The notes under the pieces: generated by a model
The model's input: the letters and a program-made list of their open reading frames with translations, nothing else
The model's database searches: none
What the model was told of the DNA's origin: nothing
Shown: positions 54,604 through 55,854 of the stretch, piece after piece
Layout: each line of letters begins with the position of its first letter
How positions within the stretch are numbered: position 1 is the stretch's first letter
Translations under genes and position numbers: made by a program
From: Escherichia coli
GTDB taxonomy: Bacteria; Pseudomonadota; Gammaproteobacteria; Enterobacterales; Enterobacteriaceae
Direction: 5' to 3' (one strand)
Assembly (NCBI RefSeq): GCF_003018235.1
Contig: NZ_CP027437.1
DNA: 64,000 bases

Positions 54604-55854
54604 ATGGATATAATGAGAAGTGTTGTGGGGATGGTGGTGTTACTGGCAATAGCATTTTTGTTGTCAGTGAATAAAAAGAGCATCAGTTTGCGCACGGTTG
54701 GAGCCGCGCTGCTGCTACAAATCGCCATTGGCGGCATCATGCTCTATTTTCCACCAGGAAAATGGGCGGTAGAGCAGGCGGCATTAGGCGTTCATAAAGT
54801 GATGTCTTATAGTGATGCCGGTAGTGCCTTTATTTTTGGTTCATTGGTCGGGCCGAAAATGGATGTCCTGTTTGATGGCGCGGGCTTTATCTTCGCCTTT
54901 CGCGTACTCCCGGCGATTATCTTCGTCACTGCGCTCATCAGCCTGCTGTACTAAATTGGCGTGATGGGGCTGCTAATCCGCATTCTTGGCAGTATTTTTC
55001 AGAAAGCCCTCAACATCAGCAAAATCGAATCTTTTGTTGCGGTTACCACTATTTTCCTCGGGCAAAATGAGATCCCGGCGATCGTTAAACCGTTTATCGA
55101 TCGCATGAATCGCAACGAGTTGTTTACCGCAATTTGTAGCGGGATGGCGTCCATTGCTGGTTCGATGATGATTGGTTATGCCGGAATGGGCGTACCAATT
55201 GACTACCTGTTAGCGGCATCGCTGATGGCGATCCCTGGTGGTATTTTGTTTGCACGTATTCTTAGCCCAGCCACCGAGCCTTCGCAGGTGACATTTGAAA
55301 ATCTGTCGTTCAGCGAAACGCCGCCAAAAAGCTTTATCGAAGCGGCGGCGAGCGGTGCGATGACCGGGCTGAAAATCGCCGCTGGTGTAGCGACGGTGGT
55401 AATGGCGTTTGTCGCAATTATTGCGCTGATCAACGGCATTATCGGCGGAATTGGCGGCTGGTTTGGTTTCGCCAATGCCTCTCTGGAAAGTATTTTTGGC
55501 TATGTGCTGGCACCGCTGGCGTGGATCATGGGTGTGGACTGGAGTGATGCCAACCTTGCGGGTAGCCTGATTGGGCAGAAACTGGCGATTAACGAATTTG
55601 TCGCTTACCTGAGTTTCTCCCCATACCTGCAAACGGGCGGCACGCTGGAAGTGAAAACCGTGGCGATTATCTCCTTTGCGCTTTGTGGTTTTGCTAACTT
55701 TGGTTCTATCGGTGTTGTCGTTGGGGCGTTTTCGGCTATTTCGCCAAAACGTGCTCCAGAAATCGCCCAGCTTGGTTTACGGGCGCTGGCAGCAGCAACG
55801 CTTTCCAACCTGATGAGCGCGACCATTGCCGGGTTCTTTATTGGTTTAGCTTGA
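54604..55854 (+). pseudogene. psuT: NupC-family nucleoside transporter PsuT/YeiM interrupted by an in-frame TAA stop after codon 116
   Basis: ORFs 54604-54954 and 54961-55854 are in the same frame and together align end-to-end with the intact paralog at 57791-59041; TAC TAA ATT where the paralog has TAC TAC ATC. Confidence 0.8.

What the first reader, a model, noticed from the sequence alone, without database searches (positions are those of the whole stretch)
54949..54957. In-frame TAA nonsense codon splits the nucleoside transporter gene psuT (yeiM)
The two track ORFs 54604-54954 and 54961-55854 share one frame and together align over the full length with the intact paralog nupX (57791-59041). 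At codon 117 the sequence reads TAC TAA ATT, where nupX has TAC TAC ATC encoding Tyr-Tyr. This is a single C-to-A change. It is either a strain-specific inactivation of the third gene of the psuK-psuG-psuT pseudouridine operon or a sequencing error.
Basis: seen in the sequence. Interest (0 to 1): 0.5.

Follow-up and report, generated by a model that had tools for sequence, protein, structure and literature searches.

The report
Real nonsense mutation inactivating transporter psuT
A single C-to-A change puts a stop codon a quarter of the way into the E. coli gene for the presumed pseudouridine importer; it is a real, inherited mutation shared by a small clone, not a sequencing error, and is an ordinary young pseudogene.

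Summary
Window 54949-54957 reads TAC TAA ATT. ORFs 54604-54954 and 54961-55854 share one frame and together form a full 416-codon psuT. Base 54954 is A where other E. coli and the paralog nupX have C (Tyr117).

It is not a sequencing error. Four independent sequencing runs read the same TAA, on two different genomic backgrounds, and about 22 public contigs carry the matching split product. The allele is rare: none of 5,426 complete RefSeq E. coli genomes has it, while 4,003 match the TAC version.

The stop leaves a 116-residue scaffold fragment (TM1, TM2, IH1, part of TM3) without the nucleoside-binding transport domain, so PsuT function is most likely lost. psuK, psuG and 45 other complete conserved genes in the window are intact. 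Nothing downstream of the stop has decayed, so the lesion is young.

psuT is otherwise under strong purifying selection. Other rare, independent lesions exist: TAG at the same codon (annotated "internal stop" by RefSeq in strain EFF60), TGA at codon 194, and a junction to prophage DNA 5 bp downstream.

Verdict: a routine lineage-specific pseudogene of low interest.

The parts
54952..54954 (+). Ochre stop codon TAA at psuT codon 117. The mutated base is 54954 (A; ancestral C, TAC = Tyr).
   Evidence: The TAC version matches 4,003 complete genomes and the TAA version none. Independent runs read the same TAA.
54604..55854 (+). psuT (yeiM), 416 codons plus stop, now a pseudogene with one internal stop.
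   Evidence: 99.6% identical to annotated psuT over 1361 bases. The synteny is psuK-psuG-psuT-yeiL-rihB-nupX. Full-length match to solved CNT structures, 5L26 at E = 7e-132 and 3TIJ at 1e-125.
54604..54951 (+). The 116 codons that can still be translated. They cover the N-terminal scaffold part of the transporter (TM1, TM2, IH1 and part of the third hydrophobic stretch).
   Evidence: This product hits only Pfam PF01773 Nucleos_tra2_N. Hydrophobic stretches lie at residues 1-29, 27-50 and 88-132. CNT architecture is taken from PMC7440666.
54955..55851 (+). Codons 118-416, no longer reached by ribosomes that start at 54604. They encode the Gate and C-terminal (transport) domains.
   Evidence: The 296-aa product hits PF07670 Gate and PF07662 Nucleos_tra2_C. 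Its amino-acid sequence is identical to the intact allele, so there is no decay.
54961..54966 (+). GTG (54961) and ATG (54964, native Met121). These are the only candidate restart codons just after the stop.
   Evidence: They begin 7 and 10 nt after the last base of the stop. Predicted anti-Shine-Dalgarno pairing is -1.5 kcal/mol, against -5.3 for the psuT start, -6.7 for psuK and -6.4 for psuG. The mean for internal ATG/GTG codons in psuT is -2.9.
52643..53584 (+). psuK (pseudouridine kinase), intact.
   Evidence: Full-length with no gaps or stops against the reference. The exact protein is on record as pseudouridine kinase.
53572..54510 (+). psuG (pseudouridine-5'-phosphate glycosidase), intact.
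55922..56620 (-). yeiL, convergent with psuT. No gene lies downstream of psuT on its strand before this one, so no polar effect on another gene is expected.
57791..59041 (+). nupX, the intact paralog used for comparison. It reads TAC TAC ATC at the homologous codons.

Best explanation
A genuine, heritable C-to-A transversion at window base 54954 changed Tyr117 (TAC) of psuT into an ochre stop (TAA). Ribosomes starting at 54604 terminate after 116 residues. The released fragment holds only TM1, TM2, IH1 and part of TM3 of the scaffold domain. It lacks TM6 and the whole transport domain (HP1, TM4, HP2, TM7), which binds and carries the nucleoside, so PsuT activity is lost. psuT is the last gene on its strand before the convergent yeiL, so no other gene is affected. 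psuK and psuG remain intact. The cell should therefore still be able to break down pseudouridine made inside it, but it loses its dedicated (presumed) importer. The mutation is recent, because nothing downstream has decayed. A small E. coli clone and one recombinant relative carry it. Shown here: the base change, its ancestral state, its reproducibility in independent data, its rarity, and which domains are cut off. Inferred: loss of transport, the absence of a restart product, and the phenotype.
For: - Sequence and frame.
- Ancestral TAC: the closest allele differs by four synonymous changes plus this base. The TAC 41-mer is in 4,003 complete genomes and the TAA 41-mer in none.
- Reproducibility: L003, L016 and L018 (three different runs) read TAA and differ from the window at one base in 12-19 kb. 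L004/L017 (a fourth run) reads TAA on a background that diverges from 55120 onward.
- Carrier count: the window-type 296-aa downstream product, which is only called when psuT is split, is on 22 contigs.
- Assembly quality: of 48 complete conserved genes mapped from a reference, only psuT has an internal stop, and none has an indel.
- Domain content: the 116-aa product hits only PF01773, and the remainder hits PF07670 and PF07662. psuT matches CNT structures over its full length. The scaffold and transport domain assignments come from PMC7440666.
- Precedent: RefSeq annotates the sister TAG allele at the same codon as a pseudogene with an internal stop.
- Weak restart signal.
- psuT is normally maintained: 24-53 synonymous differences against 0-2 amino-acid changes between diverged alleles.
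Against: - No raw reads of the source genome were available, so read support is indirect. It rests on independent assemblies of other runs of the same clone.
- Loss of function is inferred from the fold, not measured.
- PsuT's substrate has never been shown directly. When expressed, PsuT gave no detectable uridine, cytidine, xanthosine or gemcitabine transport, and its name comes from operon context (PMC11241209).
- GTG and ATG codons begin 7 and 10 nt after the stop and the downstream frame is intact, so some restart product cannot be excluded.
- The 41-mer test only covers haplotypes that match the flanks, about 74% of complete genomes by the TAC control.
Confidence: 0.85

Rival explanations
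1. Sequencing or assembly error: the true base is C and psuT is intact.
For: No complete RefSeq E. coli genome has the TAA. The reads of the source genome could not be inspected. The window has one private synonymous base (52792) that no other carrier shares, so it is not error-proof.
Against: Four different sequencing runs, assembled independently, read the same TAA, and one has a different downstream haplotype. About 22 contigs carry the split product. The rest of the window shows no indels or stops in 47 other complete conserved genes.
Confidence: 0.02
2. The gene is split but still works. Ribosomes that terminate at TAA restart at GTG 54961 or ATG 54964, and the 116-aa and 296-aa pieces assemble in the membrane into an active two-piece transporter.
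For: Start codons begin 7 and 10 nt after the stop. The downstream frame is fully intact and identical in protein to the intact allele. Close stop-start pairs can support re-initiation in bacteria, and some transporters tolerate being expressed as two pieces (general knowledge, not tested here).
Against: Shine-Dalgarno pairing ahead of the restart codons is -1.5 kcal/mol, weaker than the average internal ATG/GTG in psuT (-2.9) and far weaker than real starts (-5.3 to -6.7). The cut lies inside the third hydrophobic stretch, and TM3 is a trimer-contact helix. Residues 117-120 would be missing. An intact downstream frame is uninformative in so young an allele. In the older Gly194 stop allele, the part downstream of the stop has gone on to acquire a frameshift, which looks like decay rather than maintenance.
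Confidence: 0.06
3. The stop is read through or suppressed, so full-length PsuT is still made.
For: None specific. The downstream frame is open.
Against: TAA is not conserved. Orthologs carry a sense codon, so this is not a programmed recoding site. No Rfam element lies at or near the site. The only tRNA in the window is tRNA-Pro(GGG). From general knowledge, UAA is the most efficiently terminated stop codon in E. coli.
Confidence: 0.02
4. The inactivation is adaptive: losing psuT is favoured in some lineages, which explains repeated independent hits. This concerns the cause and is compatible with the best explanation.
For: At least four independent psuT lesions exist. These are TAA117, TAG117 on a different haplotype, TGA194 on 183 contigs and in 6 complete genomes, and a junction to prophage portal DNA after about nt 359.
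Against: All are rare (0, 1 and 6 of 5,426 complete genomes). psuT is under strong purifying selection across the species. The databases hold very many E. coli assemblies, and 92 single-base changes in 72 codons can create a stop. Because I searched specifically for a product ending at codon 116, a second hit there is not surprising. No comparison with a control gene was made.
Confidence: 0.05

Closest known systems
psuT pseudogene of E. coli strain EFF60 (NZ_CP086678.1, locus LMF34_RS18275), annotated by RefSeq as 'internal stop'
   Same: Same gene, same codon 117, same base position and the same consequence (a 116-aa product followed by an open 296-codon remainder).
   Different: The stop is TAG (C-to-G), not TAA. 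It sits on a different psuT haplotype: 28 synonymous and 2 amino-acid differences, with the nearest flanking differences 69 bp upstream and 39 bp downstream. An independent origin is the simpler reading.
Intact PsuT/YeiM of E. coli (K-12 UniProt P33024), concentrative nucleoside transporter (CNT) family
   Same: Same locus and gene order. With Tyr117 restored, the exact 416-aa protein is on at least 1000 public contigs and is named a NupC/NupG family CNT transporter or putative pseudouridine transporter.
   Different: The window copy has the stop at codon 117. Even for the intact protein, the pseudouridine role is inferred from operon context. No uridine, cytidine, xanthosine or gemcitabine transport was detected (PMC11241209). 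psuT deletion is used in engineering to block presumed re-uptake (PMC13090712).
psuT Gly194 stop allele (GGA to TGA), e.g. strains RM9088 and 2014C-3011
   Same: Another single-base nonsense pseudogene of psuT, also followed directly by an ATG.
   Different: It affects a different codon and is more widespread (183 contigs, 6 complete genomes). It is also older, because a subset has a further 1-bp deletion and frameshift downstream. The window allele shows no secondary damage.
NupX (YeiJ), the paralog 2 kb downstream in the window
   Same: Same family and same length (416 aa), 88% amino-acid identity, Tyr-Tyr at the homologous position.
   Different: It is intact here. It has been shown to transport uridine and cytidine with low efficiency (PMC11241209). 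Whether it can replace PsuT for pseudouridine is unknown.

Membership tests
psuT (yeiM) ortholog | High identity to annotated psuT over the whole gene | tested here: met
   99.6% over 1361 bases to psuT of NZ_LR778147.1. 5,411 complete genomes match at least 80% of the query in one place, and every row listed is annotated psuT.
psuT (yeiM) ortholog | Conserved neighbourhood fruBKA-psuK-psuG-psuT-yeiL-rihB-nupX-yeiI | tested here: met
   Gene-by-gene mapping to the reference.
psuT (yeiM) ortholog | Uninterrupted reading frame encoding about 416 aa | tested here: not met
   Internal TAA at codon 117.
Concentrative nucleoside transporter (CNT; Pfam PF01773 + PF07670 + PF07662) | The three Pfam domains in order, and full-length similarity to solved CNT structures | tested here: met
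   The precomputed Pfam hits are split across the two products. The restored protein matches 5L26 at E = 7e-132 and 3TIJ at 1e-125, over residues 2-415.
Concentrative nucleoside transporter (CNT; Pfam PF01773 + PF07670 + PF07662) | Nucleoside (pseudouridine) transport activity | not testable with these tools
   This needs an uptake assay. The literature has no direct demonstration even for intact PsuT.
Nonsense-mutation pseudogene ('internal stop') | In-frame stop within an otherwise full-length, colinear alignment to intact orthologs, with a sense codon as the ancestral state | tested here: met
Nonsense-mutation pseudogene ('internal stop') | The variant is real, meaning it is reproducible in independent sequence data | tested here: met
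   Four runs and two backgrounds. 22 contigs carry the split product.
Nonsense-mutation pseudogene ('internal stop') | Loss of the protein's function | not testable with these tools
   Inferred from loss of the whole transport domain. Not measured.
Programmed stop-codon recoding or readthrough | The stop codon is conserved among orthologs | tested here: not met
   0 of 5,426 complete genomes have TAA, and 4,003 match the TAC 41-mer.
Programmed stop-codon recoding or readthrough | A recognisable recoding signal or RNA element at the site | tested here: not met
   No Rfam match at gathering threshold anywhere in psuT.

The most novel reading that the evidence does not exclude
The split psuT is not dead. 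Termination at TAA is followed by re-initiation at GTG 54961 or ATG 54964, and the scaffold fragment (residues 1-116) and the transport-domain fragment (residues 121-416) assemble into a working two-piece concentrative nucleoside transporter. That would explain why the allele persists in a clone sampled in many separate sequencing runs.
Probability: 0.04. Interest if true: 0.4.

Novelty: already known. Interest (0 to 1): 0.1.

Why it matters
It matters little beyond correct annotation. psuT in this genome should be marked as a pseudogene (internal stop), not called as two small genes. The carrier clone is predicted to lack the dedicated pseudouridine importer while keeping the kinase and glycosidase. 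The clone could serve as a natural knockout for testing whether PsuT really imports pseudouridine, which has never been shown directly. The allele is also a convenient single-base marker for this clone.

Tried and rejected
1. The raw count of 95 contigs for the exact 116-aa product was rejected as a carrier count. L006-L008 are contigs that simply end at that codon. Control prefixes showed contig ends piling up at codons 115-120: 34, 95, 6, 145 and 44 contigs for 115, 116, 117, 118 and 120 aa, against 1-5 contigs for 105-114 aa. I used the 296-aa downstream product instead.

2. L019, returned as a carrier of the 296-aa product, was rejected. It reads TAC, and the ORF call is an artefact of a 100-N scaffold gap.

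3. I proposed that the contig-end pile-up comes from a psuT/nupX exact repeat or gene conversion. This is not supported. The longest shared exact run is 23 nt in the window and 29 nt in a complete genome with the same upstream haplotype, and identity is about 79% throughout.

4. I considered whether TAA and TAG are one allele related by an A/G transition. This is unlikely, because the haplotypes differ at about 30 sites across the gene and at 69 bp and 39 bp on either side of the codon. A very short conversion tract is not formally excluded.

5. I checked whether the window shows general gene decay or a poor assembly. It does not: 47 other complete conserved genes are intact with no indels.

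6. A PADLOC search of the island next to tRNA-Pro gave no hits.

7. An Rfam scan found nothing in or near psuT.

8. No ORF of 60 aa or more on the opposite strand overlaps the site.

Full report
**Observation.** The window reads TAC TAA ATT at 54949-54957. The ORF list gives 54604-54954 (116 aa) and 54961-55854 (297 aa from a GTG), whose starts are 357 nt apart and therefore in one frame. Translating 54604-55857 without stopping gives a 416-codon protein interrupted only at codon 117. The paralog nupX (57791-59041) also has 416 codons. It aligns without gaps at 88% amino-acid and 79% nucleotide identity and reads TAC TAC ATC at the same place.

**Identity of the gene.** The stretch is 99.6% identical to annotated psuT of E. 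coli NZ_LR778147.1, and 5,411 complete E. coli genomes match at least 80% of it in one place. The neighbourhood is the standard fruBKA-psuK-psuG-psuT-yeiL-rihB-nupX-yeiI-nfo. With Tyr117 restored, the protein matches the solved concentrative nucleoside transporters over residues 2-415: CNT_NW (5L26) at E = 7e-132 and vcCNT (3TIJ) at E = 1e-125. That exact restored 416-aa sequence is on at least 1000 public contigs.

**Ancestral state.** Against the closest intact allele there are five differences in 1361 bases: four synonymous T/C changes and 54954 A versus C. I used a 41-mer centred on the base, so that any 28-base search seed must span it. It matches none of the 5,426 complete RefSeq E. coli genomes with A and 4,003 of them with C. 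The change is therefore C to A, Tyr to ochre stop. The test covers only haplotypes whose flanks match, about 74% of genomes by the C control.

**Real allele or error.**
- The exact 116-aa product is in the large protein collection, and the DNA of the encoding contigs could be read.
- L003 (SRR11357309), L016 (SRR18885539) and L018 (SRR2102939) read TAC TAA ATT. Each differs from the window at one base (52792, synonymous in psuK) over 12-19 kb.
- L004/L017 (SRR35421096) also reads TAA. It is nearly identical to the window upstream but diverges by about 1-2% from 55120 onward, which indicates a recombination breakpoint inside psuT. It is therefore a different strain.
- The raw count of 95 contigs for the 116-aa product is inflated by contigs that merely end there (L006-L008). 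Control prefixes confirmed this.
- The better measure is the 296-aa product starting at Met121, which is called only when psuT is split. The window type is on 22 contigs, the longest 5,012,557 bp and probably the source chromosome.
- One returned place, L019, was a false positive caused by a scaffold gap.
- Of 48 complete conserved genes mapped from a reference, only psuT has an internal stop and none has an indel, so the assembly is clean.
- A sequencing error is effectively excluded. The allele belongs to a small clone plus one recombinant relative.

**Consequence.**
- The precomputed Pfam hits put only Nucleos_tra2_N on the 116-aa product, and Gate plus Nucleos_tra2_C on the remainder.
- In bacterial CNTs the scaffold domain is TM1, TM2, IH1, TM3 and TM6, with IH1, TM3 and TM6 forming the trimer contacts. 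The transport domain (IH2, HP1, TM4, TM5, IH3, HP2, TM7, TM8) binds the nucleoside through HP1, HP2, TM4 and TM7 (PMC7440666).
- Hydropathy places the stop inside the third hydrophobic stretch, residues 88-132.
- The product therefore lacks everything that binds and moves the substrate, and loss of function is the expected outcome. This step is inferred, not measured.
- yeiL is convergent immediately downstream, so no other gene should suffer a polar effect.
- psuK and psuG are intact.
- RefSeq's pipeline annotates the sister allele in strain EFF60 as a pseudogene with an "internal stop".

**Restart and readthrough.** GTG 54961 and ATG 54964 begin 7 and 10 nt after the stop. Predicted pairing with the 16S rRNA tail ahead of them is only -1.5 kcal/mol. 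The psuT, psuK and psuG starts give -5.3, -6.7 and -6.4, and internal ATG/GTG codons in psuT average -2.9. A restart product would also lack TM1-TM3. I give a functional two-piece protein about 5%. Readthrough has no support: the stop is not conserved and no RNA element lies at the site.

**Age and selection.** Diverged psuT haplotypes differ by 24-53 synonymous changes but only 0-2 amino-acid changes, so the species normally keeps this gene under strong purifying selection. Downstream of the TAA, the encoded protein is still identical to the intact allele. Carriers are nearly identical to one another over 12-19 kb. The lesion is therefore young.

**Other psuT lesions found along the way.**
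- TAG at the same codon 117 occurs in L002, L005 and the complete genome EFF60. It sits on a haplotype with 28 synonymous and 2 amino-acid differences from the window, and the nearest differences lie 69 bp upstream and 39 bp downstream. It most likely arose independently. Its split product is on 8 contigs.
- Gly194 GGA to TGA is on 183 contigs and in 6 complete genomes, and some carriers have an additional 1-bp deletion downstream.
- In L022 and six similar contigs, psuT is joined after about nt 359 to the interior of a multi-copy phage portal gene.
- All are rare. 92 single-base changes in 72 codons of psuT can create a stop, the databases are very large, and I searched specifically for products ending at codon 116. 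A second hit at that codon is therefore not evidence of a hotspot or of selection.

**What is known about PsuT.** Its pseudouridine role is inferred from the operon. When expressed in E. coli, it showed no detectable transport of uridine, cytidine, xanthosine or gemcitabine (PMC11241209). Metabolic engineers delete it to prevent presumed re-uptake of pseudouridine, with modest gains in titre (PMC13090712). The phenotype of this natural knockout is therefore predicted, not established.

**Verdict.** This is a correctly observed, real, lineage-level nonsense pseudogene of psuT. It is ordinary in kind and of low interest. Its practical value is for annotation and as a possible natural knockout.

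Noticed in passing
window about 15330-25650, next to tRNA-Pro(GGG) at 25650-25726 (-): An island of about 10 kb that is absent from the closest reference, where yejO, tRNA-Pro and yejM are contiguous. It encodes a P4-type integrase (24190-25449), an Icd-like domain protein (22412-23473), a second tyrosine recombinase (18981-19994) and a ClpP-like prohead protease/major capsid fusion protein (16170-18065). It has no defence-system hits. It looks like a small phage satellite or capsid-forming island. Only a 9-nt imperfect repeat (GCACGAGAG) was seen at the far end.
   Followed up: partly
psuT codons 115-120 (window about 54946-54965) in public draft assemblies: Contig ends pile up here. Exact N-terminal prefixes of 115, 116, 117, 118 and 120 aa are on 34, 95, 6, 145 and 44 contigs, against 1-5 contigs for 105, 111 and 114 aa. 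A psuT/nupX repeat or gene conversion was tested and not supported. The cause is only partly explained.
   Followed up: partly
L022:1501-1907 (Logan SRR20966086, plus 6 similar contigs): psuT is joined after about nt 359 (...ATTGGCGT|ATGATCCGGATG...) to the interior of a phage portal gene that is present in up to 21 copies in prophage-rich E. coli. No complete RefSeq genome has the junction. It may be a real rearrangement that disrupts psuT in another lineage.
   Followed up: partly
L002, L005, L009 (NZ_CP086678.1 strain EFF60): psuT codon 117: A second nonsense allele, TAG, occurs at the very same codon on a different psuT haplotype. It is in 1 of 5,426 complete genomes and on 8 contigs, and RefSeq annotates it as a pseudogene.
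   Followed up: yes
L011-L014: psuT codon 194 (window equivalent 55183): A third nonsense allele, GGA to TGA, is on 183 contigs and in 6 complete genomes. L011 and L013 also have a 1-bp deletion near window position 55379, and L011 additionally has shortened psuG and yeiL calls, which suggests continuing decay.
   Followed up: partly
window 55008-55120 compared with L004/L017: There is a recombination breakpoint inside psuT. The L004/L017 strain matches the window upstream (2-3 differences in about 10 kb) and then diverges by about 1-2% for the rest of the locus.
   Followed up: partly
window 48647 (fruB codon 69): The window and the tight TAA clone (L003, L016) have TAT (Tyr). Every other locus compared at this base, including the recombinant TAA carrier, has GAT (Asp). 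This is a clone-specific amino-acid change in the fructose PTS protein FruB.
   Followed up: no
window 54557-54580 (psuG-psuT spacer): A stable hairpin, AAACCTGGCG-CTGA-CGCCGGGTTT, lies 24 nt upstream of the psuT start. The 106-nt spacer folds at -35.4 kcal/mol, with z = -3.0 against shuffles. The simple terminator scan did not call it. It could be a partial terminator or an mRNA-stabilising element.
   Followed up: no
window 52643-54510 (psuK, psuG): These two genes are only 96.3-96.9% identical to the closest complete genome, whereas flanking genes, including psuT itself, are above 99%. This points to a mosaic, recombined locus.
   Followed up: no
window 29442-29467 (-): The Rfam L25 ribosomal-protein leader lies upstream of rplY (46.9 bits), as expected.
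   Followed up: no
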